A stretch of 32,000 bases of DNA, taken from contig OZ245049.1 in assembly GCA_965224465.1 (NCBI GenBank), forward strand, positions 3,060,001-3,092,000, in the 5' to 3' direction. The stretch is from Flavobacteriaceae bacterium. GTDB lineage: Bacteria; Bacteroidota; Bacteroidia; Flavobacteriales; Flavobacteriaceae. The notes under the pieces were generated by a model. The model was given only the letters and a program-made list of their open reading frames with translations, made no database searches and was not told where the DNA came from. Positions within the stretch are counted from its first letter, which is position 1; every line of letters begins with the position of its first letter. Position numbers and translations under genes: made by a program. This document shows, piece after piece, positions 4,841 through 31,769 of the stretch.

Positions 4841-4870
4841 GAGTCGTTTTTTGAGTTGATTGTTTTGTGC

Positions 4871-5329: not shown

Positions 5330-5420
5330 ATACTTATTACAATTTGAAATGATCCCTATAAATAGTTTCTTTTATGTTCTAGTGTTGTTAAAAAATAGAA
5401 CGATAGCTAAGGCCATCCAT
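5330..5420 (-). repeat. R1 interspersed repeat, copy b (inverted orientation)
   Basis: The reverse complement reads ...gctatcgttctattttttaacaacactagaacataaaagaaactatttatagggatcatttcaaattgtaataagta, which aligns along the full R1 core. Confidence 0.7.
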
Positions 5421-5508
5421 CTATTTTCTGCCTAGCTAAAACAAAAAATAATTCCATTTCTACAGTCACTCGGAAATGTATTTGAATTGTGTATTAGCAG
5501 AAAAAAAA

Positions 5509-5526
5509 GGGGAGTCAGACCTCCCC
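5509..5526 (-). terminator. Rho-independent terminator (bidirectional shape) downstream of the DUF4374-like gene
   Basis: ggggag-tcagac-ctcccc, with an A8 run upstream and attctttttt downstream. On the minus strand this is a GC stem followed by U8, 16 nt after the stop at 5542. Confidence 0.65.
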
Positions 5527-5541
5527 ATTCTTTTTTCTAGG

Positions 5542-6819
5542 TTATTTTAACTTCAAAATTCTGGGGATACCAGCAGTCGTAAACATTTTTTTACTTTTCA
5601 GCGTATTTATATCTATCTCTTTTATATAAGATGCTGTTTTGTTTACATAAGGAATGTATGCTTTTCCTTTCTCGAAGTAAATATTACTAGCCATTGCACC
5701 AATGGTATATTCATCATTTACTTTTTGAGCAGTTTTATCATATAGGTTAAATTTGTACCACTGTGCAATTGGATCGGTATAATAAGAATACGGATTGTCT
5801 GGGTTTACTTTAGATTTATCATTTGAAGTCGCAAAGAAGTTTCCATTTCCTATATATTCGAAATTCACAACGGGGTTGTTTAAACCTCTACTTGCGGTTT
5901 CTAAATCAAAGTAATAATCGGGATCAAAATCGGTTTCTCCCTTTTTTATACGTAAAATACAGGCAGGTTTACCAACATTTAATCCTCCCCAGTAGTTGTG
6001 ACAAAGCATATAAATATCATTTTTACTATCTTTTATCATAAATTTTGCTCCTTGTCCAGAATTCCAAGAACCTACACTATTTCCTTTGTCACTAGAGATC
6101 CATTTTACAACAGCTCCAGAATTATCAGAAGAGTGAATGTCTACTTTATTTAAATCTATGACAAGCATGTCGGCTGTAGGAGACGCAGGGATGTCTGGGG
6201 TAAGGCTGTTAAGAAAGAAAAATCCGATAAAAAGGTGATTTCCACTTATGATCATTTCGGTAGGGACTTGTGCATTAATTTTTTTTCCTTCCGAAGGGAA
6301 ATTGGTCACTTCTCCTAAACGAGAAAACGAACTAAAATCTATTTGCCCTGTTTTTTCCATGCTTTCAGGGTTGAATATTAGTATTTTACTGCTAGAAGGT
6401 CCTCCAACAAAAGCTGTGTTTTTGTCTTTAAAACAGATATTACCTTGGTATCCAAGTTCAGAAACACTAAGTCTTCCTTCTTTTGTAAACCCTTCTTTTT
6501 TATCATAAACCCATTTTGTTATTTCTTGCGGGGCGCCAAATTTATTAGCGTAAAAATTCCCGTTGAATTCATAAATCCCAGCAATTCCTTCGGCTATAAT
6601 TTCTGTCGCTTTTTTATTGTTATATTCTTTTTTATCGCTCAATGTTTTAATGGACTGTAGGTAAAATCCGTAATTAAATGTCCCTCCTTTTACGGTTGTG
6701 ACAAGGGCGTATTTGGCACTGTTATCTACTTTTGGTTCATCGTCATCATTTTTGTTACAGGAACAAAACAGTAGGCTTATAAAAGCTATTAGTACTAAAT
6801 GGTTTCTTAATTTCATCAT
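5542..6819 (-). CDS. Cell-surface lipoprotein, DUF4374-like (tentative), partner of the TonB-dependent receptor
   Basis: Signal peptide plus lipobox (LLFCSC). 425 aa and immediately downstream of a TonB-dependent receptor, which is the usual DUF4374 position. The family call is from memory of this synteny, not a search. Confidence 0.55.
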   Translation of the reverse strand: MMKLRNHLVLIAFISLLFCSCNKNDDDEPKVDNSAKYALVTTVKGGTFNYGFYLQSIKTLSDKKEYNNKKATEIIAEGIAGIYEFNGNFYANKFGAPQEITKWVYDKKEGFTKEGRLSVSELGYQGNICFKDKNTAFVGGPSSSKILIFNPESMEKTGQIDFSSFSRLGEVTNFPSEGKKINAQVPTEMIISGNHLFIGFFFLNSLTPDIPASPTADMLVIDLNKVDIHSSDNSGAVVKWISSDKGNSVGSWNSGQGAKFMIKDSKNDIYMLCHNYWGGLNVGKPACILRIKKGETDFDPDYYFDLETASRGLNNPVVNFEYIGNGNFFATSNDKSKVNPDNPYSYYTDPIAQWYKFNLYDKTAQKVNDEYTIGAMASNIYFEKGKAYIPYVNKTASYIKEIDINTLKSKKMFTTAGIPRILKLK

Positions 6820-10331: not shown

Positions 10332-10361
10332 AAACCTCCCTTTATTCCACTTAAAATTAGT

Positions 10362-10442
10362 TGCGATTGTTTTTCAACAACGATAAAACGTAAAAGAAAC
10401 TATTTATATCGGTTATTTTGGATTGTAGTTGGTATAAGTAAC
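10362..10442 (+). repeat. R1 interspersed repeat, copy c
   Basis: tgcgattgtttttcaacaacgataaaacgtaaaagaaactatttatatcggttattttggattgtagttggtataagtaac. Located just after the AraC stop. Confidence 0.7.
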
Positions 10443-16589: not shown

Positions 16590-16670
16590 AGAATAGCTAG
16601 CACAGGTCAATACATAAACTATTAATATTGGATATTTTGGATTGTAATTGGTATTACTTAATTTAGAGTA
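16590..16670 (+). repeat. R1 interspersed repeat, copy d (5' part degenerate)
   Basis: ...gctagcacaggtcaatacataaactattaatattggatattttggattgtaattggtattactta aligns with the 3' two-thirds of R1. Confidence 0.6.
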
Positions 16671-17863: not shown

Positions 17864-18080
17864 GAATGTCGTTGCCTAATTGGCTGCCGAGTTTTATTTG
17901 CGCTATCGATTATGGTCAACTTGTGCCACTTTAAAAGATCAAGTTCAATTAAATTATTGCCCAATACACTTGCTCCGATGGACTTAAAAAAATCATCACG
18001 AAACATAAAAGAAGCAATCGTAATGAGAAAAATAAATAATTTTATGATTTGTTTAGGGGGAATATGGATGGATATCCTTT

Positions 18081-18344
18081 GCTATCGTTCTATTTTTTAA
18101 CAACGCTAGAACGTAAAACAACCTGTTTATATCGGTTATTTTGGATTTTAATTGGTGTTAGGTTATGCTTCTCCAAAAACCACAAAGATTTACACCAAGA
18201 CCATCGAGATAAACAATAAATAATTATTGGACCGCTTGAAAATTTAAAAAATTTGAATACTTTTAACAAAAAAACGACACATAACCCTAAACTATTATAG
18301 ACATAACGTCAATTTTTGGAAGTTTATGGATGATATACGGGTGT
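18081..18344 (+). repeat. R1-long: R1 core plus tyrosine-recombinase 3'-end remnant plus shared leader (cassette 1 left flank)
   Basis: R1 core 18081-18155. 18155-18223 then reads VLGYASPKTTKIYTKTIEINNK*, which is the ...LGHxSxKTTEIYTH... tail (including the catalytic Tyr) of a tyrosine recombinase. Stops lie immediately upstream, so there is no recombinase body. The shared block ends with gatatacgggtgt (18332-18344). Paralogous to 20252-20522. Confidence 0.8.
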
Positions 18345-20004: not shown

Positions 20005-20262
20005 TTGCCAATAACTAAACGTTCGTGCGGTGCGCGCCCAGTACGAACATCCTGTTGACTATACCGGCTCAAAAGATGATACTATGAGGTTGGCGCAATT
20101 AATTAAGAGGCTATCAACAAAGACCTTAATAGGTACCACCTATTTTTAGGTCATTTTCTCTCACGCTCTTTTGTGGGGATATCTTTTTACTGTTTTTAGA
20201 TACGGATAAGTGTTGGTCAGCAGTATTTTGGCATGCGTTTCCCCTTTCGTGGCTACGTTTGT
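20005..20262 (+). repeat. R2 conserved ~260-bp element, copy 1 (candidate structured RNA / cassette right flank)
   Basis: Aligns end to end with 23408-23672. GC-rich hairpin 20021-20028/20041-20048, long-range helix 20053-20058/20114-20119, and an identical hairpin gacct..taggt-acc-accta..aggtc (20122-20152) followed by a U-rich tract. Confidence 0.75.
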
Positions 20263-20522
20263 TTTTTAACAACGCTAGTACGTAAACCAACCTATTTATA
20301 TCGGTTATTTTGGATTGTAATTGGTGTTAGGTTATGCTTCTCCAAAAACCACAGAGATTTACACCAAGTCCATCGAAATTAACAATAAAAAGATTAAAGG
20401 ACCGCTTGAAAACTTAAAAAATTTGAATACTTTTAACAAAAAAACAAATAATCACTCATTCTACTCTAGCTATGTTAGAAATAACAGCTACTCTAAGAGT
20501 TCTATAGTCGATATACGGGTGT
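20252..20522 (+). repeat. R1-long: R1 core plus tyrosine-recombinase 3'-end remnant plus shared leader (cassette 2 left flank)
   Basis: R1 core 20252-20325. 20324-20443 reads VLGYASPKTTEIYTKSIEINNKKIKGPLENLKNLNTFNKK (recombinase C-terminal tail), preceded by an in-frame TAA. It ends with gatatacgggtgt (20510-20522), 22 nt before the GHKL gene ATG. Track ORF 20321..20572 is this remnant, not a gene. Confidence 0.8.
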
Positions 20523-20543
20523 TGCCAGTAATACCAAAACCAA

Positions 20544-22535
20544 ATGCAGAAAGAAGCGAAAATCACATCTAAAGGAATTAAAAAAGTTTTAAAGAACTAT
20601 AATCCTGCTTCTTCTTTTGCCGAATATATTTGGAATGGTTTTGACGCTAAGGCAACCAAAATTGAGATAAACTACGATTCGAACGAATTAGGTAGAATTG
20701 GCTTTATTCAAATTAGAGATAACGGTACAGGAATTGACCTTGAAAACTTGGCATACAAGTTTGATAATTTCTATGAATCCGAAAAGTCCATTCAAATTCA
20801 ATCACCAAAACATTCTTCAATTCTACACGGTAAAAACGGAGTTGGTAGACTTACATTTTTCACTTTTGCTAACGATGCTAAATGGACTACACTTTATGAA
20901 AATAAAGGGATTAAAGGAGGAACAATAAGTATCTCAGCAGAAAACTTAAAAGTTTATGACAACAATTTTGTAAACACAGATTCAAAATTTACTGGAACGA
21001 CTGTTTACTTCACCAACTTGCTTATTGGCCTAGATACATTTCAACAAGAATTGACAAACTATATAAAGAAAGAGTTTTGTTGGTTTTTAGAATTAAACAA
21101 AGAGTATTCAATTCTAATAAATGGAATACCACTAGATTACTCTGATTTAGTTGCAGATAGAGATTCTTTTGAATTAGAAAACAGCAACAGTTTTTTCAAA
21201 ATTAAATATGTCCAATGGACTGAATTATTAAATAAGGAACACTCTAAGTTTTATTTTCAAGATTCTAGTGGAAAAGAAATATATAAAAACTTCACTACAC
21301 TTAATAAAAAAGGAGATTATTACTATCACAGTATTTACATTGAAAGTGATTTCTTTTCACATTTTGATTTTACAAAAAATGAAGAAAGCAATCAAATAAG
21401 TTTGTTTGCTAAAGCAAAATCATCTGTAGAATACAAATACTTAATTAGTAAACTTAACGAATACTTAAAAACCAAACGAAAGCCCTACTTAAGGGCATAT
21501 GCTGAAAGGCTGGTAATGGATTATGAATTAGATGGTATAATACCAACTTATAATAACTCTTGGGAGCAGATTAGAAGTAAAGAGTTAAAAGATACTATTA
21601 TTGGATTATATGAAGTCCAACCTAAAATATTCTCTAATTTAAACCTTGAACAAAAAAAGATATTCGTTCAATTTATAGACTTACTACTTGACTCTAACGA
21701 AAGAGAAAATATTTTCAAAATAATAGAAGGTGTTACCAAACTCGAACCAGAAGAAAGAGAGGACTTATCAAATATTTTACACAAAACAAGTTTAAACAGA
21801 GTCATAGATACTATTAAATTGATTGAAGATAGATACAAAACATATTATCAATTAAAAGAACTTGTGTTTAATGAAGAACTAGGAGCCAAAGAAATTCCTC
21901 ATTTACAAGATTTAATAGAAAATCATTATTGGCTTTTCGGTGAAGAATACCATTTGGTTACAGCTGCTGAACCAAAATTTGAAGAAGCATTAAAAAGATA
22001 TATTTATAAAACAACAGGTGAAATTAAAGACCAAAAAATAAACCATATCGACAAAAACAGAGAAATGGATATTTTTGCTTGCAGACAACATCAAAAAGAC
22101 GCAAAAATTGAGAATATCGTTCTTGAATTAAAACATCCTAAAATCCAACTAGGCGAAAAAGAGTACTCACAAGTAATGAAATATCTAAGTGTTATAAGTT
22201 CAAGACAAGAATTTAACGCACCAAATATGTCTTGGAAATTTTATCTCATAGGCAATAAATTTAATACTAGTCAATTTATTGAGAGACAGATTAAGACAAA
22301 CAAAAACCACGGAGAAGAGTCTTTAGTATACAATGATGAAGGTAGAATTAAGGTTTACGTTAAAACTTGGAGCGAAATATTTACTGAGTTTGAATTAAGA
22401 CATAATTTCCTTGATGAAAAATTAAAATTGGAAAGAGAGAAACTTTATGAATTAAGCAAAGACGCTGACGAAATTGTAGAAAAGGCATTAAATAACACAG
22501 CTATTAGCAAACCTGAAATTGTCGTTCCAAAATAG
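20544..22535 (+). CDS. GHKL (HATPase_c_3/MORC-like) ATPase fused to a C-terminal PD-(D/E)xK, Shedu/DUF4263-like nuclease domain
   Basis: N-box EYIWNGFDAKATKIEI, G1 IRDNGTGID, G2 HGKNGVGRLTFF. C-terminus: NHYWLFGEEYHLV ... REMDIFACRQ ... IVLELKHPK ... QVMKY (a D ... ExK arrangement). No signal peptide. Confidence 0.75.
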   Translation: MQKEAKITSKGIKKVLKNYNPASSFAEYIWNGFDAKATKIEINYDSNELGRIGFIQIRDNGTGIDLENLAYKFDNFYESEKSIQIQSPKHSSILHGKNGVGRLTFFTFANDAKWTTLYENKGIKGGTISISAENLKVYDNNFVNTDSKFTGTTVYFTNLLIGLDTFQQELTNYIKKEFCWFLELNKEYSILINGIPLDYSDLVADRDSFELENSNSFFKIKYVQWTELLNKEHSKFYFQDSSGKEIYKNFTTLNKKGDYYYHSIYIESDFFSHFDFTKNEESNQISLFAKAKSSVEYKYLISKLNEYLKTKRKPYLRAYAERLVMDYELDGIIPTYNNSWEQIRSKELKDTIIGLYEVQPKIFSNLNLEQKKIFVQFIDLLLDSNERENIFKIIEGVTKLEPEEREDLSNILHKTSLNRVIDTIKLIEDRYKTYYQLKELVFNEELGAKEIPHLQDLIENHYWLFGEEYHLVTAAEPKFEEALKRYIYKTTGEIKDQKINHIDKNREMDIFACRQHQKDAKIENIVLELKHPKIQLGEKEYSQVMKYLSVISSRQEFNAPNMSWKFYLIGNKFNTSQFIERQIKTNKNHGEESLVYNDEGRIKVYVKTWSEIFTEFELRHNFLDEKLKLEREKLYELSKDADEIVEKALNNTAISKPEIVVPK

Positions 22536-22565
22536 AAAGTTTTGTCCATCTTCCAATAGTATTCA

Positions 22566-23396
22566 ATGACCGAAAACAAATACACCAAAGAAACAGACAA
22601 AATTGTAAGTGATTTAATCACTAATCGGATTTTAAGACATACAATTCAGTTTTTCAAAAAAGGAGAGAAACGACTTGAACCATTTGGCTCAGGTGTTTTT
22701 GCGAAAATACATAATGACTATTTTATTTTAACTGCATCACACGTAGCAGATTTTTTTGAAAAAAATCCTAAAGAAGACTTACTAATTCGTGTAAATAAAA
22801 AATCTTATATCAATGTTCTTGGAGATATAAAGTATACTGATATTAAAAAAAGTAAGGGTGTCGATTTAGCTTATATCAAGGTTGACAAACAAATGATTGA
22901 GCCTTTATGCAACCCCTACATTCCTTTAGAAATAGATAAAATAAGAAGTCATCACAATGTATTTCACGCAATGAATTATTGTGTTTTGGGCTATCCTGAA
23001 ACGAATATCACTAAAGATGATGAGCCTTTAGATACTGGAGCGTCTTTTTATTTAACGAGCGCGAGTAAATATAATAGGTATCAAAAATATGGATATGATA
23101 AAAAAGACTATATCATAGTCGATATGCAAGGGAAAGGAAAAGATGTGAAAACGAATAAAAAATCAAAAATAAACACTCACTTTTATGGAATAAGTGGTTG
23201 CGGACTTTGGCTTTTGCTCATCTACAAAAATCCAATTACCGGCAAAGAAGAAATTGATTACCGATTAGTCGGAATAATGTCCGAATTTAAAAACTCAAAA
23301 TATTTTTGTTTAATAGCTAATAAAATTAAACTTTTGATTGAGGCTTTAAAAGTTATCGAAAAACATAAATTTAAAGAAATAAAAATAGAGTATTGA
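22566..23396 (+). CDS. Cytoplasmic trypsin-fold (S1-like) serine protease
   Basis: Catalytic triad in canonical order: His in FILTASHVADF, Asp in GVDLAYIKVD, Ser in YGISGCGLW. No signal peptide. Lies 30 nt downstream of the GHKL gene on the same strand. Confidence 0.75.
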   Translation: MTENKYTKETDKIVSDLITNRILRHTIQFFKKGEKRLEPFGSGVFAKIHNDYFILTASHVADFFEKNPKEDLLIRVNKKSYINVLGDIKYTDIKKSKGVDLAYIKVDKQMIEPLCNPYIPLEIDKIRSHHNVFHAMNYCVLGYPETNITKDDEPLDTGASFYLTSASKYNRYQKYGYDKKDYIIVDMQGKGKDVKTNKKSKINTHFYGISGCGLWLLLIYKNPITGKEEIDYRLVGIMSEFKNSKYFCLIANKIKLLIEALKVIEKHKFKEIKIEY

Positions 23397-23407
23397 AAGA
23401 GTACTAC

Positions 23408-23672
23408 TGGCAATAACTAAGTGTTCGTGCGGTGCGTAGCACCCAGCATGAACATCCTGTTGACTATACCGGCTCAAAAGATGATACTATGGGGATTGCG
23501 CGAAGTTTATTAAGAGGCTATCGACAAAGACCTTAATAGGTACCACCTATTTTTAGGTCATTTTCTCTCACGCTCTTTTGTGGGGATAGTTTTTTACTGT
23601 TTTTTGATACTGATTATTGTTGGTTAGTAGCGTTTAGGCATGCGTTTTCCATTACGTGGCTACGTTTATTTT
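23408..23672 (+). repeat. R2 conserved ~260-bp element, copy 2
   Basis: Starts 12 nt after the protease stop. Same helices as copy 1 (23423-23430/23446-23453 and 23458-23463/23521-23526). The substitutions relative to copy 1 preserve pairing through G-U wobbles on the + strand. Confidence 0.75.
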
Positions 23673-23775
23673 TTTTGTTCGGTTATTAGTACATGCTTTT
23701 ATTCGTTGCAACCAATAGGCAGGAGGTCCTCTTCCGTTAAGCAGATAGACTGTTTTGAGTTTCCCTGTCTTACAA

Positions 23776-23829
23776 TTGTTCTATTTTTTAACAACGCTAG
23801 AACGTAAAACAACCTATTTATATCGGTTA
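23776..23829 (+). repeat. R1 interspersed repeat, copy g (3'-truncated)
   Basis: ttgttctattttttaacaacgctagaacgtaaaacaacctatttatatcggttat, after which similarity stops. It marks the boundary to the PAAR locus. Confidence 0.7.
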
Positions 23830-24096
23830 TAAGATAAAGGTCAAATCGGTACGGTAATTAGATGAATAAAAATACAGGGAAATATAATCTGAAAACCACT
23901 ACTGCGTATAACTATTTTTTGTACTTTTGATTACTGCTTATAGATATATACGTCTTAATAATTAAAATAACCCAATGCTACATCGTAGGTTAAATGGATA
24001 TGCCTTCTTGTTTAGCACTGCTACTGTGAGAATATGGGATTATAAGTAATTTAACACACTCAAGCGGTAGAACATAACATAAAAAACAAATAAATT

Positions 24097-24558
24097 ATGC
24101 CAGGACCAGCAGCAACAATATCGCACATGCACACATGCCCTATGTATAGTGGGACAAGCCCACATACTGGCGGCCCCATTATAGGCCCGGGAGTGCCAAC
24201 AGTTTTAATAGGAGGAAAACCTGCCGCAGTAATGGGGGATCAATGTACCTGTTCGGGACCACCCGATGTAATTGTAGAAGGTGTTTCTACCGTATTAATT
24301 GGTGGGAGACCTGCAGCTACTATGGGATCAAAAACAGGTCATGGAGGCGAAGTAAGCATTGGAAATCCTACCGTACTTATTGGTACAAGATGTAGTGCTC
24401 CTACCGCAATAATGCCTTTGAGTCAAATACCTTTTCCTAAAATCACTCTAATTAATAGAATATTAGGGAATACAAGGCAAGCGCAAGAAAACCAAGAAAA
24501 AATAAAAGAAGAAGCTAAGAAAAATGGATATCTAAGCCTTGTTGATTTTAGTATTTAA
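24097..24558 (+). CDS. PAAR domain-containing protein (contractile-injection spike tip)
   Basis: Repeated PAAR blocks: PTVLIGGKPAAVMGD, STVLIGGRPAATMGS, PTVLIG. Cys/His-rich N-terminus (HMHTCPM, CTCSGPPD). Confidence 0.9.
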   Translation: MPGPAATISHMHTCPMYSGTSPHTGGPIIGPGVPTVLIGGKPAAVMGDQCTCSGPPDVIVEGVSTVLIGGRPAATMGSKTGHGGEVSIGNPTVLIGTRCSAPTAIMPLSQIPFPKITLINRILGNTRQAQENQEKIKEEAKKNGYLSLVDFSI

Positions 24559-24569
24559 TTATAAATGTT

Positions 24570-25640
24570 ATGAAAGTAGAGTACCCATTATTACCTTCTG
24601 ATAAAAAAGATGCTGAAGAATTTACTAAAGAAGAACTTATTTCTAAATATTATGGGCAAAAAAATCGCTTTGGTTTTTTTCCTATAGGACGTTTAAACTC
24701 TTGGCATGGAGGGATTCATATAGAAAGTTCAAGTAGTAAAGTTAGAGCTGTTGCAGATGGAAGAATAATAGCTTATAGAATTACAGAGGATCTTTTGACT
24801 GAAAAAGAAAGGGATAAAAAGTACTCTAACAGTTTTATTCTAATACAGCACAATTTTGAAACTCCTAAAAAACAAAAGTTGCGTTTTTATAGTTTGTATA
24901 TGCATTTACAAACTAAAAATCAATTAGAAAGTGGGTCTGGAAAACATATCCCAAATTTATATGCTAAATATATTGCAAAAGTAACAGGAAAACAGCAACG
25001 AGGTGGACTTAATGCAAGATCTGGTTCTGAAACATATGTTAGCAGTAGTAAAAAATGGGGGAAAATAAAAATGGTTATTTATAAAGACGAAATTGTTAGT
25101 TATGATATATCCCCTATAACTGGAGAAAAAGGGGAAAAGATAATGGGAGCTTCTTTTGCAGATGACCATTGGATTAATGACCATGATTATAAATATATCC
25201 CAATTATATATAAAGGACATAGCGATTTATTTATAGCAAGTTCAGGAACTAGAGTTAAAAATAAAGGTGATGGATGTGTGCAAATAGCCACAGCTGAAGA
25301 CTTCGATAAAAATGACATAAAAGGAGCTATTGTAAGAAATAAACCCAGTACAGGAAGTCGTACCTATGTTCGAACTATTAAAAAAGGAACTAATTTAGGG
25401 CTAGTTGAAATAGTCAATAGTGAATGGGTTAAGTTAAAAGGGAAAGAAGAATATATTCAGAAAAAAGCCCTTAAAATTTCTAAAAAACTAGGCGATCAAT
25501 TTGTGTATAATAAAACAAGTGACACAGCTAATTTAAATAAAGTGCAAAACGTTGATATGCCTATAAAAGCGGGAGATATAATAGGTGTTCCAAGTAAATT
25601 TGAATTGAAAAGCAAGAGCAATATAGTACGGTTCATTTAG
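24570..25640 (+). CDS. Polymorphic effector, N-terminal segment (M23/LytM-like peptidase first half); frameshifted relative to the next segment
   Basis: NSWHGGIHIES...VRAVADGRIIAY and RFYSLYMHL resemble the first two M23 blocks. PIKAGDIIGVPS resembles the pre-HxH block. No signal peptide. Ends at a TAG inside the overlap with the next open frame. Confidence 0.6.
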   Translation: MKVEYPLLPSDKKDAEEFTKEELISKYYGQKNRFGFFPIGRLNSWHGGIHIESSSSKVRAVADGRIIAYRITEDLLTEKERDKKYSNSFILIQHNFETPKKQKLRFYSLYMHLQTKNQLESGSGKHIPNLYAKYIAKVTGKQQRGGLNARSGSETYVSSSKKWGKIKMVIYKDEIVSYDISPITGEKGEKIMGASFADDHWINDHDYKYIPIIYKGHSDLFIASSGTRVKNKGDGCVQIATAEDFDKNDIKGAIVRNKPSTGSRTYVRTIKKGTNLGLVEIVNSEWVKLKGKEEYIQKKALKISKKLGDQFVYNKTSDTANLNKVQNVDMPIKAGDIIGVPSKFELKSKSNIVRFI

Positions 25641-27640
25641 AGGTTTTTACAGACGATGCCGAAGTAGAAAATTTTATAAATAATAATAAGAAAGATGATG
25701 ATCGTAAAACATATGATGTAGCAAGCGGAAAAACATTAAAAAAGGCTAAGCCAAGTAACAATTTAAAATTAGGAAATAAAATAAAAATTAAACAACGTAA
25801 AGGTAATTATGTTGAAATAGGATTTGGAAAAATAATTGCTATTATTGAAAAGAAAAATCTAAAAGGGTACAAAAATCATAAAGGTTACCCGATAAAACTT
25901 GACGTTTTTGATGACGTTAATGTACTGTATCATGGGTATTTAAAAAAGAATAGTTTATTAAAATGGATAACAGATCAAACTTATGTTAAAAAAGTTGACA
26001 ATAAGTTTGTAACATGCCCTAAAAATGAAGAACCAGGTGATAATTATCCATACAGAAGGTTGTCATTTAATGTTGAAGGAAGTAGTTTATGGGTTGATTC
26101 ATTTGTGTTGCCAGCAGAAACAGCCAATGAAAAAGATGATTGGGTAGCATTAACCCAAGATGTAACTCAAGTATATGAAAAAGAACCAAAAGAAACCGAT
26201 AATGATATTGTGACTACAGAAGCGTTTTCTGTACGAAAAGTAACAGCTACTAAGGATAAAGATGGTATAGAATGGTTACAAGTAAAAGGTAAAAGAAAAC
26301 ATAAAGATAAACAAGGTTGGATAAAATTAAGTGAACTAACAGAGATAAACCCATATGAATGGAAAGGTGATACGTATGGATGGCAAATCCTTAATGATAC
26401 CGGATCACAATACTTTTATCAATTTGGAGATTCTGTAGAAAATACCGAGCCTCATAATTTTGTTACTACATTATGGGAGCAATTAAAGCAATACGATAGC
26501 GATAATGATAAAGTGTTAAGCGTATATGAGTTACAAAAAGCAAGAAGTTCAGAAGCAGGAGCTAAAATACTAAGTAAATTTATATGTAAGCATTTTAGTG
26601 AGTGGGATACTAATAGCAAAATAAGAGATTTTAAAACTGAGGTAGAAAATATTTATAAAAAAGGAATAGAGCAAGAAACAGTTAAAGCTGAGATAACAGC
26701 TTTAGAAGAGGCAAGAGATAATAAAATAGCACTCTTAGAAGATAAAATTAATAACCTTTGTTTTTGGGATAAAATCCAAACAGGAGATCTTGTACCTACC
26801 AGTAAACGTAAACAAGATTATATTGACAAACATAAACCTGTGCGTACAAGTATGTTACCGAAAGGCACAAGTAAAGAAGAGATTCGTTTAGCAAAAGAGT
26901 TTGATGACTTAGAGAAAGAAAGAACTCCGAGAGAGTTTCCTGCTGATTCTAATGTGTATCACTTCCACCCTATTGCATTTGTGGAACAGATGAAGATGAT
27001 ATGTGCTGCTACTACACCGCCTTGGATGGAGGTGGCTTTAGCAGAAGCTAAAAAAGCTAAGTTTATTAGAGAAACTTTGAGTCCAACATCTGAAATGGCT
27101 AATAAATACCATACTTATGTAGGGATACCTAAAGCTACTGGTTCTACAGCTTGGTGTGCCTCTTTTGTTAATTGGTGTTTAAACGAATCTGGTCAAAAAA
27201 GTGTAAAATCAGCGGGTTCACAAAGTATACTTTGGAATGAAGGAAAACTATTTAAGCGTATTAATGAACCGGTATATGGTTGTATTGTTTTATTAACTAA
27301 TTATGTTAAAAGTAATGGTAAACAAACTTCTAATGGACACGTTACTTTTTTATACGGAATTGATTCTAACGATAATTTAATATGCTTAGGAGGAAATCAA
27401 CGTGATACAATAAAGTTTTCTAGATATAAAAAAAAAGGAGTTTTAGCTACTTTTCGACAGTATCAAAAATCAGAAGGAGGTAAAGTTTTTGTGGAGCAAA
27501 AATTTAATGGCTTCTTTTTACCAATTGATTATTCTCCTACAAATAGTAAACAACCAGATGTTGTAAATATGAAAAAATTAAATAATGAACTGGCTGGTAA
27601 AGCTGTGAAATCTGATGGGGAAAATGAAAAAACTACTTAG
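25604..27640 (+). CDS. Polymorphic effector, C-terminal segment: end of the M23-like domain, EF-hand-like loop, and a TIGR02594/NlpC-P60-superfamily peptidoglycan amidase-like domain
   Basis: The frame is open from 25604, but the first canonical start is TTG at 26060. STVHLEVFTDD continues the M23-like domain. DSDNDKVLSVYE (26495-26530) fits an EF-hand loop. C-terminus: PPWMEVALAE...STAWCASFVNWCL...NGHVTFLYG...LGGNQRDTI, which is the TIGR02594 pattern. Confidence 0.7.
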   Translation: MEKQEQYSTVHLEVFTDDAEVENFINNNKKDDDRKTYDVASGKTLKKAKPSNNLKLGNKIKIKQRKGNYVEIGFGKIIAIIEKKNLKGYKNHKGYPIKLDVFDDVNVLYHGYLKKNSLLKWITDQTYVKKVDNKFVTCPKNEEPGDNYPYRRLSFNVEGSSLWVDSFVLPAETANEKDDWVALTQDVTQVYEKEPKETDNDIVTTEAFSVRKVTATKDKDGIEWLQVKGKRKHKDKQGWIKLSELTEINPYEWKGDTYGWQILNDTGSQYFYQFGDSVENTEPHNFVTTLWEQLKQYDSDNDKVLSVYELQKARSSEAGAKILSKFICKHFSEWDTNSKIRDFKTEVENIYKKGIEQETVKAEITALEEARDNKIALLEDKINNLCFWDKIQTGDLVPTSKRKQDYIDKHKPVRTSMLPKGTSKEEIRLAKEFDDLEKERTPREFPADSNVYHFHPIAFVEQMKMICAATTPPWMEVALAEAKKAKFIRETLSPTSEMANKYHTYVGIPKATGSTAWCASFVNWCLNESGQKSVKSAGSQSILWNEGKLFKRINEPVYGCIVLLTNYVKSNGKQTSNGHVTFLYGIDSNDNLICLGGNQRDTIKFSRYKKKGVLATFRQYQKSEGGKVFVEQKFNGFFLPIDYSPTNSKQPDVVNMKKLNNELAGKAVKSDGENEKTT

Positions 27641-28073
27641 TATACTGGTACTACTTTTTGGAATGTCTACTTGTAAGAAAGTTTCTAAAATCAATCCTGC
27701 AAAAGTAATAGTAGTTAACGAACAGCTTGAAAAGATAGTTTCGGAAAAAGAACAAACTATTGAATATTTTTTAAAACAATTACAAATTGCAGTTGAAAAA
27801 AAAGATATTGATAACATAGAAAATAAAATAATATTTCCGCTAAAGTTTAGTAGTGGTGGAGAATCTATTTTTTACAATAACTATCAAGAGATTAAAGAAG
27901 ATGGAAGCAATGAAGAATTTTCAAAAATACTAGAAGCAAAATTTATAGGAATTGAGGATGGATTTTATATGATAGAATATCAAGATCCACAAAGTATAGA
28001 TTATTTTATTACTTTTTATTTTATTAAAAGTATTGATGGTTTTAAATTAAAGAGTTTTTCAGAACCTTATTAA
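27615..28073 (+). CDS. Lipoprotein, candidate cognate immunity protein 1
   Basis: Signal peptide plus lipobox (LLFGMSTC). Overlaps the effector 3' end by 26 nt. Small periplasm-facing protein immediately after a cell-wall-targeting toxin domain. Confidence 0.6.
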   Translation: MGKMKKLLSILVLLFGMSTCKKVSKINPAKVIVVNEQLEKIVSEKEQTIEYFLKQLQIAVEKKDIDNIENKIIFPLKFSSGGESIFYNNYQEIKEDGSNEEFSKILEAKFIGIEDGFYMIEYQDPQSIDYFITFYFIKSIDGFKLKSFSEPY

Positions 28074-28117
28074 AAAAACTAAACGGTGAATTAATTAAAA
28101 ATATTGAAGATGCTTTT

Positions 28118-28399
28118 GTGGGAGCTGTAATAGTTTTCTCGCATTCCCATGTAGCTTTTATTGCTGGACAATCTAAAGACAAAAAAAGTTTAATTTATTT
28201 AGGAGGTAACCAATCAGATGGAGCTACAAATGATGGACCGGGAAAAAGAACAATTTGTACAAATCCAAAATCTAAATCAGGTTTTAATACAAAGTTTTGG
28301 TTAGTAAAACCAAAAAATTATCCTTTAAATTCAAATAAAGAATTACCTATAATATCTTCAGATGGAAAAGAATTAGGTTATAAAGAAACACATAACTAA
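28118..28399 (+). pseudogene. Orphan 3' fragment of a second TIGR02594-like toxin domain (lacks the Cys-bearing N-terminal half)
   Basis: GAVIVFSHSHVAFIAG...LIYLGGNQSD aligns with GCIVLL...NGHVTFLYG...LICLGGNQRD of the main effector. No WCA-type nucleophile block and no pre-toxin junction upstream. Confidence 0.6.
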
Positions 28400-28401
28400 T
28401 T

Positions 28402-29040
28402 ATGAAAACATATAATAATATTAGATTACTATTAATTGCAATAATTTTCTTAACAATTATTTCTTGTAAGAATAATAAAGAAACCCCTAAAAACAATCAT
28501 GTTTCAATATATTTAAAAACAAAAACGGAAGCAAAAAAACAAGACAGTACAAAAAAACAAATATTTGATGACAAAGAATTAAAAAATATTTTAAAACAAC
28601 AATTAGCGAAGGGTAAATCTGCTTTGTATGATGATTCTTTTGATGTTGTGACCTATAAATATAGTCAGAAGGATTTAGATGTCATTCTACCTTTTTTGAA
28701 GGAAAATCTAATCGGTTATGATGTTCCTTCAAATATAAAGTTTAAAAAAATAATCAAACAGATATTTGGTAGAACTGTTGATTTTGCAAGTAATTCAAAT
28801 TATTTATATGTGAATTTTAATAATAAATTAGATAGAGCTAAAAAGTTTTATAGAAATGATAATTCAATTCAAATAAACCCTTTCGCTATATTTATTATTA
28901 AAAAGGGTAATTTTATAACACCTCTTTATTCTGTAGCAGAGATTTTAAATTACAAAAATATATATCCAGAAATATCTAAATTTGAAAATAAAGTTAAAAT
29001 CAATCAAAAAAATAAAAATGGTGAATCAATAAAGGGCTGA
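28402..29040 (+). CDS. Lipoprotein, candidate immunity protein 2, 3' end interrupted by IS30
   Basis: Signal peptide plus lipobox (LTIISC). Starts 2 nt after the orphan fragment. Its stop codon TGA (29038-29040) is at the IS terminal inverted repeat. Confidence 0.55.
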   Translation: MKTYNNIRLLLIAIIFLTIISCKNNKETPKNNHVSIYLKTKTEAKKQDSTKKQIFDDKELKNILKQQLAKGKSALYDDSFDVVTYKYSQKDLDVILPFLKENLIGYDVPSNIKFKKIIKQIFGRTVDFASNSNYLYVNFNNKLDRAKKFYRNDNSIQINPFAIFIIKKGNFITPLYSVAEILNYKNIYPEISKFENKVKINQKNKNGESIKG

Positions 29041-30160
29041 ATTCAACTTATAAACGCAACTTTTTGGTTAAACAATAATTGATTCATTACAAATATAGGG
29101 TTTTGATATGAAAACCTTTTCCTAGGCCTTCTATTTAATTTTCCTTCCACCTGTTTTATCATCTGCTTAGTTAATATCGAAAAGTCACTTCCTTTAGGGA
29201 AATATTGCCGAATAAGCCCATTTAAATTTTCATTAGATCCTCTTTCCCATGAATGGTAAGGATGTGCAAAATAATAATCGATTCCTAAAAATTCAGCTAC
29301 TTTTTTATGTCCTGCAAACTCTTTTCCGTTATCAGCTGTTATAGTGTTTATATACGGTATCCAATCTTCTAAAAGCTCATTAATAGCAGCTGTTACAACA
29401 GAAGATTCTTTAGATGCTATTTTTTTCATCTTTAGCATCCCAGAAGCCCTGTCATTGATTGTAAGAATGGCTTGATGATGATTTTTTCCAATTATTAAAT
29501 CCACTTCTAAATCTCCAAAACGTTCTCTTTTCTCCACTATATCTGGTCGTTTTTCAATACTAATTCGATCTTTAATAATACCACGTGAGTCCTTGAATGC
29601 CCCTCGTTTCCTGTACTTCCTTCCTTGTCTTCTTAAATGAGTATAGAGTGTGCCTTTATGCTTCTTATCTTGCCAGATATGCTGATAAATACGTTCTACT
29701 GAAACAACTTCTTTTCCTTGCTTAGTAAGTATTCCAACCACTTGTTCTGGACTATAATCATCACGTAACAGCTTTTCAACCTCGCTTCTTATCTTCTCAG
29801 TAAACCTAATGTGCTTTCGCTTTTTCTTATGTCTATCCTTCCACTTTCTATGTGCTAATTCGTATTCATAGGAGCCGCTACGAGCATCGCAATTACGTTT
29901 GCATTCTCTACTTATAGTGCTTTTATGTTTCCCTATAGCCAAGGCTATTTTGGACTTAGAATACCCCTGTGATAACATACAGGTAATTGTGTATCTTTGT
30001 TCTTTGGTTAAATGTGCCATACTACTTCTTTTTCAGAGACTTGAGGGCGTAAGGTAACTATTCCATCAAAACATGAAGGAGAGGTGACTCTCTTTCTGTT
30101 TTGAAAAATAAACCTTAGAAACTCTCAAATCTAAGAAGTTGCATTTACTACTTGAATTTA
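29038..30160 (-). mobile_element. IS30-family insertion sequence (~1.12 kb)
   Basis: Terminal inverted repeats: aattcaacttataaacgcaactt (29040-29062) against the reverse complement of aagttgcatttactacttgaatt (30136-30158), about 19/23 matches. A single transposase ORF lies inside. The exact ends and the target-site duplication are not resolved. Confidence 0.8.
29043..30020 (-). CDS. IS30 family transposase
   Basis: N-terminal HTH (GYSKSKIALAIGKHKSTISRECKRN). DDE region (LEVDLIIG ... ITADNGKEF ... HSWERGSNENLNGLIRQYFPK). Confidence 0.95.
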   Translation of the reverse strand: MAHLTKEQRYTITCMLSQGYSKSKIALAIGKHKSTISRECKRNCDARSGSYEYELAHRKWKDRHKKKRKHIRFTEKIRSEVEKLLRDDYSPEQVVGILTKQGKEVVSVERIYQHIWQDKKHKGTLYTHLRRQGRKYRKRGAFKDSRGIIKDRISIEKRPDIVEKRERFGDLEVDLIIGKNHHQAILTINDRASGMLKMKKIASKESSVVTAAINELLEDWIPYINTITADNGKEFAGHKKVAEFLGIDYYFAHPYHSWERGSNENLNGLIRQYFPKGSDFSILTKQMIKQVEGKLNRRPRKRFSYQNPIFVMNQLLFNQKVAFIS

Positions 30161-30161
30161 A

Positions 30162-30371
30162 GAGGTATTTAAATGGAGTGAAGACAAAGAAAATAATATT
30201 TCAAATAATTTAAAAACATTTGTAGCTAGAAATAAATATCTTTTTAATAACGATAAAAGCCAATTAGATTGGCTACTAAAAAACGACGAAGAGTTTATGG
30301 AAGCGTTGATAAGGGTTTATAATTATTCTAAAGACCAAAAACATAAAGATTGGTATGCTAAAAGAAATTAA
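30162..30371 (+). pseudogene. Displaced 3' end of the IS-interrupted immunity gene (probable)
   Basis: 69-codon open frame with no start codon beginning right at the IS end: EVFKWSEDKENNISNNLKTFVARNKYLFNNDKSQLDWLLKNDEEFMEALIRVYNYSKDQKHKDWYAKRN*. Frame continuity across the IS could not be reconstructed exactly. Confidence 0.4.
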
Positions 30372-30466
30372 ATACAAATACGAACACATTGATAAACATA
30401 AATATGGACACATCAGTATGCCTCCTAAAGGATTGAGTTAAAAGACAATTTTCAACTAATTCTAAT

Positions 30467-31090
30467 GTGTATCATTTTCACCCGATTGCATTTGTGGAAC
30501 AGATGAAGTTGATTGCTGGGGAACTTGATATTAAATCTGGTATTGAGTGGTTAGACTCTATTGCTATAAATCAGGAAAAAGCAGGGGTAAAATCTAATTA
30601 TAAGGTTTTATATGTTCAAGAAGGGCCTAAATTGAGAACGTCAGATTCAGATGAAGCCTTAAAATATTCCGATTGTTCAGAATTAGTCTGTAGATTTTTA
30701 AATAAAATAGGGTGGAGTAAAAAAGTTAAACACTTAAACACTTCTGCTTTGTATTCATTTGCGCAGAAAAACCCAAATTTATTAGAAAAACATGACAAAG
30801 ATTATGTTCCTCAAAAAGGAGGTATTTTTCTTTGGGCTAACAAAGCAGGTTCAAATGGTCATACGGGAATTGTTGTAGATTATGACAGTAAAATTGATGT
30901 TGTAACTACAATTGAAGCTATTAATTTTAAAGAAAGACCTTATGGTGCTACAAGTAGTATCAAATTACAAGGAGTTGTTAAAGCTAAGTGGAAAAGAAAA
31001 TCAAGTCACTTAATGAGTCATCCATTAATAACTACTAGATATGAAGCACACCCTTGTAGATTCTATTCTCCTAAAAAATCAGATAAATAA
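30467..31090 (+). CDS. Orphan toxin module: NlpC/P60- or CHAP-like cysteine peptidase domain preceded by the conserved pre-toxin junction
   Basis: Begins NVYHFHPIAFVEQMK, which is 47/50 nt identical to 26946-26995 of the main effector. Nucleophile-like YSDCSELVCRFL and GSNGHTGIVVDY. No N-terminal delivery region. A degenerate, stop-containing homology block (30388-30445) lies upstream. Confidence 0.65.
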   Translation: MYHFHPIAFVEQMKLIAGELDIKSGIEWLDSIAINQEKAGVKSNYKVLYVQEGPKLRTSDSDEALKYSDCSELVCRFLNKIGWSKKVKHLNTSALYSFAQKNPNLLEKHDKDYVPQKGGIFLWANKAGSNGHTGIVVDYDSKIDVVTTIEAINFKERPYGATSSIKLQGVVKAKWKRKSSHLMSHPLITTRYEAHPCRFYSPKKSDK

Positions 31091-31100
31091 TATTTACACT

Positions 31101-31769
31101 ATGAAAAAAACAAATTATTATATCTTATTAGGATTGATATTTTTATTAATATGTTGTAAAAATAAGGTTCCTAAAAGTGATTTATTGGGTAGTGAAAATA
31201 CTAATCATTTAATTGAAGAAAATGACCGCAAAGCAGACAGTTCATTAATTTTAGAAAAAGCTATAAATTTTGATGAGATTTATAATATTCTTTTAAATTC
31301 ATACCAAAAAAGAAATAACAAATTAGTTAAAAAGCTAGATAATAATTATTTGGAAAAATTAATTATAAAAAATAAAATTTCAAAAATTAATATAGATAAG
31401 TACGTGCAAATCAATTTCTTCTTAACTTTTTTAGATCAAAATAAAGATTACGGCGAATCATTATATGATGTTTTACCAATTAATGAGTTTGAGCCATCAA
31501 AGGATGCATATAAATATGTTGAAAGACCTTTTAATTATTTAGAAAATAATATAGAAGAAATAATAGAGAAAGTTGATTTAAAAAAAAATGATCCATTATG
31601 GGTTAAATATTACCTAAGTGAAGAAGGAATAAATAATATGCTTACGTTCTATGACAAGCAAATTAATTTTAAAAAATACTCTACTCTACTTAATCTTCTG
31701 AAGAAAGAACCTTTATTAATCCAATTCGAAAATACAGAACGAATAATTAAAGAAATAAGCGAAAAATAA
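31101..31769 (+). CDS. Lipoprotein, candidate immunity protein 3
   Basis: MKKTNYYILLGLIFLLICC lipobox. I prefer the ATG at 31101 to the track start at 31041, which overlaps the toxin module. Directly follows the orphan toxin. Confidence 0.6.
   Translation: MKKTNYYILLGLIFLLICCKNKVPKSDLLGSENTNHLIEENDRKADSSLILEKAINFDEIYNILLNSYQKRNNKLVKKLDNNYLEKLIIKNKISKINIDKYVQINFFLTFLDQNKDYGESLYDVLPINEFEPSKDAYKYVERPFNYLENNIEEIIEKVDLKKNDPLWVKYYLSEEGINNMLTFYDKQINFKKYSTLLNLLKKEPLLIQFENTERIIKEISEK

What the first reader, a model, noticed from the sequence alone, without database searches (positions are those of the whole stretch)
20544..23396. Candidate undescribed two-gene immune module: GHKL ATPase fused to a Shedu-like PD-(D/E)xK nuclease, plus an intracellular trypsin-fold protease
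ORF 20544-22535 (663 aa) has all three Bergerat-fold ATPase boxes near its N-terminus: EYIWNGFDAKATKIEI, IRDNGTGID and HGKNGVGRLTFF. Its last ~200 aa have the layout I associate with Shedu SduA/DUF4263-type nucleases: NHYWLFGEEYHLV ... REMDIFACRQ ... IVLELKHPK ... QVMKY. Thirty nt downstream on the same strand is a 276-aa protein with a complete His/Asp/Ser trypsin-fold triad (LTASHV, VDLAYIKV, GISGCGLW). It has no signal peptide, so it would be an intracellular protease. The pair sits in a repeat-bounded cassette beside a decayed paralogue, a Bro-N gene, an IS30 and a polymorphic-toxin locus, which is typical defence-island context. ATPase-plus-protease defence pairs exist (ietAS uses an S8 subtilase), and Shedu nucleases are known with varied N-terminal domains. 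I do not recognise GHKL-nuclease plus S1 protease as a named system. As a mechanism (inference only), the protease could gate or mature the nuclease, or act as a second abortive-infection effector.
Basis: partly seen in the sequence, partly recalled or inferred. Interest (0 to 1): 0.85.

Follow-up and report, generated by a model that had tools for sequence, protein, structure and literature searches.

The report
Known defence nuclease beside unrelated protease
The two genes are real, but the first belongs to an already described family of ATP-driven defence nucleases that work alone, and the protease next to it is an independent gene that sits there only in a few close relatives, so this is not a new two-gene immune system.

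Summary
Both ORFs exist as described. ORF1 (20544-22535, 663 aa) has an N-terminal GHKL ATPase domain (Pfam HATPase_c_3, E=2.4e-15) and a C-terminal PD-(D/E)xK nuclease with invariant D509, E528-x-K530 and Q543/Y547. ORF2 (22566-23396, 276 aa) is a cytoplasmic trypsin-fold serine protease (AlphaFold pLDDT 84; 383 PDB matches, all S1 proteases; invariant H59/D100/S210).

The "undescribed two-gene module" reading fails. The GHKL-nuclease fusion is published as paraMORC3 (2008), Shedu type I-D (2023) and VcSduA, a validated single-gene phage defence (2025).

The adjacency is not conserved. The protease follows the ATPase in 1 of about 64 informative metagenome loci. The ATPase precedes the protease in 2 of about 57 informative genome loci. 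All paired loci belong to one narrow clade (ATPase at least 91% identical). ATPases 85-94% identical lack the protease and are collinear with the paired ones, with no indel. DNA homology breaks exactly at the gene borders, so each gene also occurs alone. Distant ATPase homologues sit inside type I R-M operons or stand alone near other defence genes.

DUF4263 membership was not met by sequence; the structural match to Shedu is weak. The stand-alone protease family is uncharacterised and often lies in defence islands. That is the only open lead.

The parts
20544..22535 (+). Gene for a 663-aa GHKL ATPase fused to a PD-(D/E)xK nuclease (paraMORC3-type / Shedu type I-D-like)
   Evidence: ORF. More than 1500 homologues. 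659 representative clusters at E<=1e-30. Full-length PHROG 6203 match, E=2e-67.
20601..20906 (+). GHKL (Bergerat-fold) ATPase domain, residues 20-121 as matched by Pfam
   Evidence: HATPase_c_3 E=2.4e-15. Invariant E27, N31, D59, G61, G63, G96, G99, G101.
21891..22403 (+). PD-(D/E)xK nuclease core, about residues 450-620, with D509, E528-x-K530, Q543, Y547
   Evidence: Invariant motifs. Weak HSDR_N_2 hits in 25/30, 21/37 and 4/4 members. Model topology. Foldseek top hits are PD-(D/E)xK nucleases, Shedu 8ti8 first.
22566..23396 (+). Gene for a 276-aa stand-alone cytoplasmic trypsin-fold serine protease (H59, D100, S210)
   Evidence: ORF. Invariant triad. 21/34 homologues touch Trypsin_2. AF2 pLDDT 83.8, pTM 0.86. 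383 Foldseek PDB hits at E<=1e-3, all S1 proteases. No hydrophobic N-terminus.
20521..23416 (+). 2.9-kb stretch shared as one block with L001, L002 and L071 (87-91% DNA identity); flanks unrelated
   Evidence: blastn boundaries.
20006..20449 (+). Upstream copy of a ~445-nt composite host repeat (contains a terminator-like hairpin at 20159-20178 and a recombinase-3'-end-like ORF fragment)
23408..23851 (+). Downstream copy of the same composite repeat (hairpin at 23566-23585), starting 12 nt after the protease stop codon

Best explanation
The locus holds two independent stand-alone genes that lie side by side and are probably co-transcribed in this lineage. It is not a dedicated two-component system.

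Gene 1 is a member of the widespread paraMORC3-type family: GHKL ATPase, a middle region, then a C-terminal PD-(D/E)xK nuclease. By analogy with the validated relative-by-architecture VcSduA and with other GHKL enzymes, it most likely acts alone as a dimeric, ATP-gated clamp. The clamp would license its own nuclease to cut invading DNA. This mechanism is inferred, not shown here.

Gene 2 belongs to a mainly Bacteroidota family of small cytoplasmic trypsin-fold serine proteases with an intact catalytic triad. The family has no fixed partner and often sits in variable or defence regions. Its substrate and role are unknown.

In a narrow clade the two genes became joined 30 nt apart, and they spread as one 2.9-kb block into at least four unrelated genomic contexts.
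For: Domain identities.

Independence of the two genes:
- The protease is downstream of the ATPase in only 1 of 80 metagenome loci (about 64 have enough downstream sequence). It is absent from 4 further loci of close homologues.
- The ATPase is upstream in only 2 of 66 protease loci, about 57 of them informative.
- DNA homology stops exactly at the gene borders. ATPase alone spans 20521-22534 in L067/L069/L070/L072. Protease alone spans 22557-23397 in L003.
- Paired and unpaired ATPases are collinear, with no indel and only two discriminating columns (residues 657 and 661). Unpaired L072 nests among the paired sequences by identity.
- Downstream genes of unpaired close homologues are lipoproteins or a membrane protein, i.e. 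flanking host genes.

Defence role of gene 1:
- 13 of 80 loci have it wedged inside type I R-M operons (hsdR or hsdM, then GHKL-nuclease, then hsdS) with overlapping or abutting stop and start codons.
- Plasmid homologues stand alone next to Drt2, Dcm/LlaMI and VapBC.
- There is a full-length prophage family match.
- Published single-gene defence by the same architecture, abolished by E27A and by the nuclease lysine mutant (PMC12137116).
- paraMORC3 was described as stand-alone in Bacteroidetes and Proteobacteria (PMC2292703).
Against: - The two genes are only 30 nt apart on one strand, with no terminator-like signal between them.
- They moved together as one block into four different contexts. 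That is what a functional pair would also do.
- No experiment was possible.
- The middle (S5-like) domain was not modelled.
- The C-terminal model is of only moderate confidence.
Confidence: 0.7

Rival explanations
1. In this narrow clade the pair has become a true two-gene defence system. The protease would act as a second effector or as a regulator that is triggered by, or processes, the GHKL-nuclease.
For: - 30-nt spacing, same strand, no terminator between the genes.
- The 2.9-kb block is shared as a single HSP across four unrelated contexts.
- Trypsin-like proteases are known modular add-ons of defence systems (PMC12799240, PMC12642450).
Against: - Both genes occur alone with near-identical sequences.
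- There is no insertion or pro-domain in the paired ATPases. Unpaired L072 nests within the paired group.
- Known protease add-ons are fused to the sensor and paired with a dedicated pro-effector gene (MBL, alpha/beta-hydrolase, Pepco, EACC1). None of these is present here.
- The same architecture works as a single gene in V. cholerae (PMC12137116).
Confidence: 0.15
2. The stand-alone protease is itself an undescribed single-gene defence or abortive-infection effector. Its position next to the GHKL-nuclease would then be ordinary defence-island clustering of two separate systems.
For: - Neighbours of protease homologues include pAgo with associated effectors, type IIG R-M, DpdF, DrmMII, PDC-S04/S06, AbiV, an AAA_13 ATPase, integrases and recombinases.
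- The neighbourhood is highly variable.
- The protein is cytoplasmic with an intact triad.
Against: - No hit in PADLOC and only a marginal PHROG hit.
- Some neighbours are housekeeping genes: IlvD, LigA, an ABC transporter.
- No enrichment statistic with a proper background was computed.
- No sensor domain is evident in a 276-aa protein.
Confidence: 0.2
3. The GHKL-nuclease is not an immune gene but a DNA-repair or R-M accessory factor (a MutL-like role), and the protease is an unrelated housekeeping enzyme.
For: - Weak sequence similarity of the ATPase domain to MutL/PMS1.
- Iyer et al. raised a possible repair role for stand-alone paraMORC3 (PMC2292703).
Against: - Patchy distribution with sharp horizontal-transfer boundaries.
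- Presence on plasmids and in a prophage protein family.
- Embedding in R-M operons and defence islands.
- Experimental defence by the same architecture (PMC12137116).
Confidence: 0.07

Closest known systems
paraMORC3 family (Iyer, Abhiman & Aravind 2008, PMC2292703)
   Same: - N-terminal GHKL ATPase plus a C-terminal endonuclease of the restriction-endonuclease fold with E-D-ExK motifs.
- Prevalent in Bacteroidetes and Proteobacteria.
- Occurs either in R-M operons or as a stand-alone gene. Both contexts are seen here.
   Different: The S5 middle domain that is part of the family definition was not tested here. No protease neighbour was reported for the family.
VcSduA / Shedu type I-D (GHKL-Shedu; PMC12137116; bioRxiv 10.1101/2023.08.10.552793)
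   Same: - Same architecture and size class.
- The catalytic glutamate is at the same position (E27).
- The nuclease lysine lies in an ExK motif.
- Single-gene organisation in most loci.
- The best structural match of the C-terminal domain is B. cereus Shedu.
   Different: - VcSduA is reported to carry DUF4263. No member of this family (71 tested) matches Pfam SduA_C, and PADLOC gives no Shedu hit.
- The profile-profile match to a true SduA_C profile is not significant.
- Direct homology to VcSduA was not testable.
Trypsin-like protease plus pro-effector modules (trypsin-MBL in Hachiman/AVAST/Lamassu/DRT; PMC12799240, PMC12642450)
   Same: A trypsin-fold serine protease encoded next to a defence nuclease on the same strand.
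   Different: - In those systems the protease is fused to the sensor protein, and a dedicated latent effector gene lies upstream and co-evolves with it.
- Here the protease is a free 276-aa protein with no MBL, alpha/beta-hydrolase, Pepco or EACC1 partner.
- The nuclease shows no inhibitory insertion.
- The two genes do not co-occur.
IetAS (Gao et al. 2020)
   Same: An ATPase gene followed by a serine-protease gene in a defence context.
   Different: IetA is an AAA-type ATPase and IetS is an S8 subtilase (my own knowledge). Neither window protein hits the PADLOC models. The folds differ: GHKL and S1.
Type 2 Shedu (DUF4263-only proteins)
   Same: PD-(D/E)xK nuclease of defence islands. One such gene lies directly after the GHKL-nuclease in L070.
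   Different: It is a separate protein family, clearly recognised by PF14082. That contrasts with the nuclease domain of the window protein.

Membership tests
GHKL (Bergerat-fold) ATPases | Motif I E-x-x-x-N, motif II D-x-G-x-G and the glycine-rich motif III, recognised by the HATPase_c/HATPase_c_3 profiles | tested here: met
   HATPase_c_3 E=2.4e-15, above the curated cut-off. E27, N31, D59, G61, G63, G96, G99, G101 invariant.
paraMORC3 | C-terminal globular endonuclease domain of the restriction-endonuclease fold with E-D-ExK motifs, fused to the GHKL module | tested here: met
   Invariant or nearly invariant E450, D509, E528-x-K530, Q543, Y547. PD-(D/E)xK topology in the model. PD-(D/E)xK nucleases top the Foldseek list.
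paraMORC3 | S5-fold domain after the GHKL domain | not tested
No Pfam hit in that region.
paraMORC3 | Occurs in R-M operons or as a stand-alone gene, mainly in Proteobacteria and Bacteroidetes | tested here: met
   13 of 80 loci lie inside type I R-M operons. Stand-alone in L067-L072 and on plasmids.
Shedu (SduA) | DUF4263 / SduA_C (PF14082) nuclease domain detectable by profile | tested here: not met
   No PF14082 hit at E<=1 in 30 close members, at E<=0.01 in 37 distant members, or at E<=0.1 in 4 plasmid homologues. No Shedu model hit in PADLOC. hhalign against a true SduA_C profile gives probability 1.3%, E=0.039.
Shedu (SduA) | Structural similarity of the nuclease domain to solved SduA | tested here: inconclusive
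   8ti8_D is the top Foldseek hit (prob 0.97), but E=0.011 and TM 0.35/0.44 from a model with pLDDT 67. Other PD-(D/E)xK enzymes follow closely.
VcSduA (GHKL-Shedu) | Sequence homology to V. cholerae A1552VC_00276 | not testable with these tools
   The sequence tables are truncated in the stored supplements. No named Vibrio member was found.
S1 / PA-clan serine proteases | Double beta-barrel trypsin fold with His-Asp-Ser in that order and a G-x-S-G-G-type motif | tested here: met
   Model pLDDT 83.8. 383 PDB matches at E<=1e-3, all S1 proteases. H59, D100, S210, G208, G211, G213 invariant.
S1 / PA-clan serine proteases | Pfam Trypsin_2/Trypsin above the gathering score | tested here: not met
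   The window protein scores 13.4 bits against a cut-off of 27.6 (E=0.14). 21 of 34 homologues give sub-threshold hits, best 1.7e-5. The family is divergent.
Protease plus pro-effector defence modules (trypsin-MBL and relatives) | Protease fused to a sensor, with an adjacent co-evolving latent effector (MBL, alpha/beta-hydrolase, Pepco, EACC1) | tested here: not met
   The protease is a free 276-aa protein. Neighbours in the window are the GHKL-nuclease and, after the repeat, a PAAR protein. There is no co-occurrence with any partner.
IetAS | IetA ATPase plus IetS S8 subtilase | tested here: not met
   No PADLOC hit for either protein to Iet models. The protease has an S1 fold, not S8.
A dedicated two-gene system (any) | Conserved adjacency of the two families across divergent lineages | tested here: not met
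   The pair occurs in the window, L001, L002 and L071 only. Each gene occurs alone with sharp homology borders.

The most novel reading that the evidence does not exclude
The small cytoplasmic trypsin-fold protease family (276 aa, no Pfam assignment, no PADLOC model, no fixed partner) is an undescribed stand-alone immune or abortive-infection effector of Bacteroidota. Alternatively, in this one clade it has been newly recruited as a functional partner of a GHKL-nuclease, giving an early snapshot of how a protease add-on joins a defence gene.
Probability: 0.2. Interest if true: 0.55.

Novelty: new member of a known kind. Interest (0 to 1): 0.25.

Why it matters
As proposed, a new GHKL-nuclease plus S1-protease immune system would have been a notable addition to the catalogue of defence systems. 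The evidence shows something more ordinary.

- The nuclease belongs to a large, already described family. A protein of the same architecture has been validated as a single-gene defence.
- The protease is a separate, independently mobile gene.

Three useful points remain.
1. This large GHKL-nuclease family (659 representative clusters at 50% identity) is not picked up by the Pfam SduA_C or PADLOC Shedu models. Current defence annotation pipelines probably miss it.
2. It is frequently wedged between hsdR/hsdM and hsdS of type I R-M operons.
3. There is an uncharacterised family of stand-alone cytoplasmic trypsin-fold proteases that often lies in defence islands and deserves a controlled enrichment test.

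Tried and rejected
- **PADLOC and NCBIfam on both proteins.** No named system. The only hits were a weak REase_II hit and weak MutL/MzaB hits on the GHKL domain.
- **Profile search of PDB sequences.** The full-length and C-terminal profiles gave only weak MutL/PMS hits and nothing for the nuclease. The protease profile gave only a marginal exfoliative toxin B hit.
- **hhalign of the shallow C-terminal profile against one SduA_C protein.** Nothing found. Repeated with diverse profiles: not significant.
- **Link to VcSduA or the Gu et al. census by accession or sequence in supplements.** The tables are truncated. Source names of longer family members showed no Vibrio.
- **Conserved partner of the protease by clustering neighbours in 66 loci.** None found. 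The largest recurrent neighbours are integrases, plus a MORN-trypsin protein in three loci.
- **Variable 'effector slot' downstream of the ATPase.** I considered this after seeing different 256-307-aa genes there. I rejected it because they are lipoproteins or a membrane protein, plus one neighbouring type 2 Shedu.
- **Pro-nuclease activated by the protease.** Rejected, because paired and unpaired ATPases are collinear.
- **Integron-like or mobile cassette bounded by the repeats.** Rejected as the vehicle of the pair, because the repeats are host-specific and dispersed.
- **Rfam on the repeat region.** No match.
- **Sigma-70 promoter scan.** Not above the shuffled expectation, and of little value for Bacteroidota.
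Full report
**1. What is in the sequence**

Two ORFs lie at 20544-22535 (663 aa) and 22566-23396 (276 aa) on the + strand, 30 nt apart. No terminator-like signal lies between them. A terminator-like hairpin follows about 170 nt after the second gene. G+C content is about 28-35%, like the rest of the window.

**2. ORF1**

- Pfam places residues 20-121 in HATPase_c_3 (E=2.4e-15, above the cut-off).
- In an alignment of 30 homologues (53-91% identical), the Bergerat motifs are invariant: E27, N31, D59, G61, G63, G96, G99, G101. So are D509, E528-x-K530, Q543 and Y547 in the C-terminal part.
- N31, K530, Q543 and Y547 stay invariant, and D59, G61, G63, G99, G101, E450, D509 and E528 nearly so, in 36 further homologues only 26-34% identical.
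- An AlphaFold model of residues 330-663 has moderate confidence: mean pLDDT 67, and 72-86 in the nuclease core. It shows a helical region followed by the alpha-beta-beta-beta-alpha-beta core expected of PD-(D/E)xK enzymes, with D509, ExK and QxxxY in the canonical places.
- Foldseek against the PDB ranks B. cereus Shedu (8ti8) first, with probability 0.97 but E=0.011 and TM 0.35/0.44. MspJI, EcoO109I, FokI, Cap4, McrC, HamA and NucC follow. No hit passes E=0.001.
- By sequence, no family member is recognised as DUF4263/SduA_C. That covers 30 close members at E<=1, 37 distant ones and 4 plasmid homologues from Gamma- and Alphaproteobacteria and Deinococcus.
- Instead, most members give a weak, sub-threshold hit to HSDR_N_2, another PD-(D/E)xK family.
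- PADLOC has no Shedu hit.
- A profile-profile comparison with a true SduA_C profile, built from 30 type 2 Shedu proteins, aligns the catalytic motifs to each other but is not significant (probability 1.3%, E=0.039).
- Conclusion: GHKL plus a PD-(D/E)xK nuclease is solid. 'Shedu-like' holds at the level of architecture and nearest fold, not of demonstrable DUF4263 membership.

**3. ORF2**

- The window protein has no Pfam hit at E<=0.1 and no PADLOC or NCBIfam hit.
- 21 of 34 homologues give sub-threshold Trypsin_2 hits.
- H59, D100, S210 and the G-x-S-G-x-G motif are invariant.
- The AlphaFold model is confident (pLDDT 83.8, pTM 0.86). It matches 383 PDB chains at E<=0.001, and all 50 listed hits are S1 proteases.
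- There is no hydrophobic N-terminus.
- The protein is therefore a divergent cytoplasmic trypsin-fold serine protease, preceded by a short N-terminal helix.

**4. Are the two genes a conserved pair? No.**

From the protease side:
- A scan of one genome per species gave 66 loci. Only L001 (a Cytophagales MAG) and L002 (Maribacter huludaoensis) have the ATPase upstream.
- L003, whose protease is 81% identical, does not.
- The other loci have heterogeneous neighbours. These include tyrosine and serine recombinases, AbiV, IlvD, LigA, an ABC transporter, an AAA_13 ATPase, an HNH-TPR protein and a second MORN-trypsin protease.

From the ATPase side:
- Of 80 metagenome loci, about 64 have at least 1 kb of downstream sequence. 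Only L071 has the protease.
- Four loci of close homologues do not: L067 (Cellulophaga lytica, 90%), L069 (Aequorivita antarctica, 91%), L070 (85%) and L072 (94%).
- Their downstream genes are lipoproteins, a membrane protein, or a neighbouring type 2 Shedu.

DNA homology to the window is very sharply bounded:
- 20521/20536 to 23413/23416 in L001, L002 and L071: both genes, in one HSP.
- 20521/20544 to 22534 in L067, L069, L070 and L072: the ATPase gene only, ending at its stop codon.
- 22557 to 23397 in L003: the protease gene only.

Paired and unpaired ATPases are collinear, with no indel. They differ consistently at only two positions, residues 657 and 661, next to the junction. The unpaired L072 is closer to paired L071 (96.5%) than paired L001 is (93.2%). 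Presence of the protease is therefore a recent, patchy character. There is also no sign of a protease-dependent pro-domain in the nuclease.

**5. What the wider family context says**

- The GHKL-nuclease family is large: more than 1500 clusters at 90% identity, and 659 representative clusters at E<=1e-30, nearly all full-length at about 650-690 aa.
- It reaches Desulfobulbaceae, Saccharibacteria, Deinococcus, Firmicutes, Proteobacteria and Streptomyces.
- In 13 of 80 loci it is wedged inside type I R-M operons, as hsdR or hsdM, then GHKL-nuclease, then hsdS, with overlapping or abutting stop and start codons. In L115 and L116 it follows an MmeI/Eco57I-type methylase.
- On annotated plasmids it is a stand-alone 'ATP-binding protein' next to Drt2, Dcm/LlaMI, VapBC and integrases.
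- It has a full-length prophage family match (PHROG 6203, E=2e-67).
- All of this fits a defence nuclease that works on its own or alongside R-M systems.

**6. Comparison with what is known**

- Iyer, Abhiman and Aravind (2008, PMC2292703) defined paraMORC3 as GHKL plus S5 plus a C-terminal RecB-like endonuclease with E-D-ExK motifs. They found it prevalent in Proteobacteria and Bacteroidetes. They noted that the nuclease-bearing members occur as stand-alone genes without conserved neighbours.
- Gu et al. (bioRxiv 10.1101/2023.08.10.552793) list Shedu homologues with a HATPase_c_3 fold plus a middle domain (N24) among type 1D.
- The Nature Microbiology 2025 paper on the West African-South American lineage of V. 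cholerae (PMC12137116) showed that VcSduA, with the same architecture, protects as a single gene against T1-like phages. Protection is lost with E27A or the nuclease lysine mutant.
- The window protein therefore fits a described kind.
- Recent work on trypsin-like proteases in defence (PMC12799240, PMC12642450) describes proteases fused to sensors that activate a dedicated latent effector. Neither paper mentions Shedu, GHKL or MORC, and the architecture here differs.
- No paper in the library links this family to a protease.

**7. The flanking repeats**

- The pair lies between two copies of a ~445-nt composite repeat, at 20006-20449 and 23408-23851, about 90% identical over much of their length. 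A partial copy lies at 18070-18280.
- The ~90-nt core of the repeat occurs six times across the window, at positions 1, 10347, 16616, 18070, 20239 and 23761.
- It is absent from L001, L002, L003 and L069.
- The repeat therefore belongs to this host genome and is not the vehicle of the two genes.
- It has no Rfam match.
- No decayed paralogue of either gene exists in the window.

**8. Most likely mechanism**

- *Shown:* the domain identities, the conservation of catalytic residues, the independence of the two genes, and the defence-type contexts.
- *Inferred from the families:* ORF1 acts as an ATP-gated, probably dimeric GHKL clamp controlling its own nuclease against foreign DNA.
- *Unknown:* the substrate and trigger of the protease. 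It may be a separate defence or toxic effector. Its homologues' neighbours include pAgo systems, type IIG R-M, DpdF, DrmMII and PDC candidates. No controlled enrichment test was done.

**9. Verdict**

The interpretation as a new two-gene immune module is not supported. Novelty: a new member of a known kind, plus an uncharacterised neighbouring protease. Interest is low to moderate (0.25). The most novel surviving reading, with probability about 0.2, has two versions. Either the protease family is an undescribed stand-alone immune effector, or it has just been recruited by the nuclease in this clade.

Noticed in passing
window 1-91, 10347-10437, 16616-16659, 18070-18160, 20239-20329, 23761-23851; composite copies 20006-20449 and 23408-23851: A dispersed ~90-nt intergenic repeat with core TTTTTTAACAACGCTAGAACGTAAAACAACCTATTTATATCGGTTATTTTGGATT. 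Around the Bro-N and GHKL/protease genes it is part of a longer ~445-nt duplicated segment. That segment carries a terminator-like hairpin and short ORF fragments (LVLGYASPKTTEIYTK...IKGPLENL) that look like the 3' end of a tyrosine recombinase gene; that resemblance comes from my own knowledge and was not tested. There is no Rfam match, and the repeat is absent from related loci. It could mark repeated insertion or recombination at one kind of site.
   Followed up: partly
L076, L081, L082, L083, L086, L087, L089, L094, L095, L121, L123, L127, L136 (ATPase at about 4001-6030 in most): Homologues of the GHKL-nuclease (44-59% identical) are inserted inside type I R-M operons, between hsdR or hsdM and hsdS, with overlapping or abutting stop and start codons. 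Neither the Pfam SduA_C model nor any PADLOC Shedu model recognises this family, so annotation pipelines may miss it.
   Followed up: partly
L070 5964-6887: A type 2 Shedu gene (PF14082) lies immediately after an 85%-identical GHKL-nuclease. The called start overlaps the ATPase by 29 nt, but homologues suggest a start about 45 codons further downstream. This puts two PD-(D/E)xK defence nucleases side by side.
   Followed up: partly
L007 1027-2772, L008, L014 1897-3717; L032 4101-4895 and 5653-6501: In three loci a 582-607-aa protein with MORN repeats and a canonical Trypsin_2 domain starts 2-3 nt after the stop codon of the protease homologue. L032 has two paralogues of the small protease close together. 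A tandem-protease arrangement might be a real operon.
   Followed up: no
neighbours of protease homologues in L003-L033 (alignment A7): Several neighbours hit PADLOC models strongly: pAgo with Aga_REase/SIR2 partners, type IIG R-M, DpdF, DrmMII, PDC-S04, PDC-S06 and mad2. This suggests the stand-alone protease family often sits in defence islands. No background control was run.
   Followed up: partly
window 24097-31769, especially 26930-27000 and 30443-30513: A PAAR protein is followed by a CHAP-like toxin and small putative immunity genes. A 71-nt stretch, 86% identical, is duplicated at the junction before the toxin domains of two genes, and a transposase-like ORF (29043-30020, minus strand) lies between them. 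This looks like a polymorphic-toxin locus with an orphan toxin module.
   Followed up: no
window 20544-23396 versus L001, L002, L071: The identities of the two proteins are incongruent across the paired loci. ATPase/protease identities are 91/89% in L001, 96/84% in L002 and 98/86% in L071. This hints at different rates of evolution or at recombination within the block.
   Followed up: no
L034 6004-6270 and 6276-7391: A truncated protease homologue (the last ~88 residues) is followed after 5 nt by an alpha/beta-hydrolase (Hydrolase_4). That is one of the effector classes reported to be activated by proteases in defence modules. It is a single locus.
   Followed up: no
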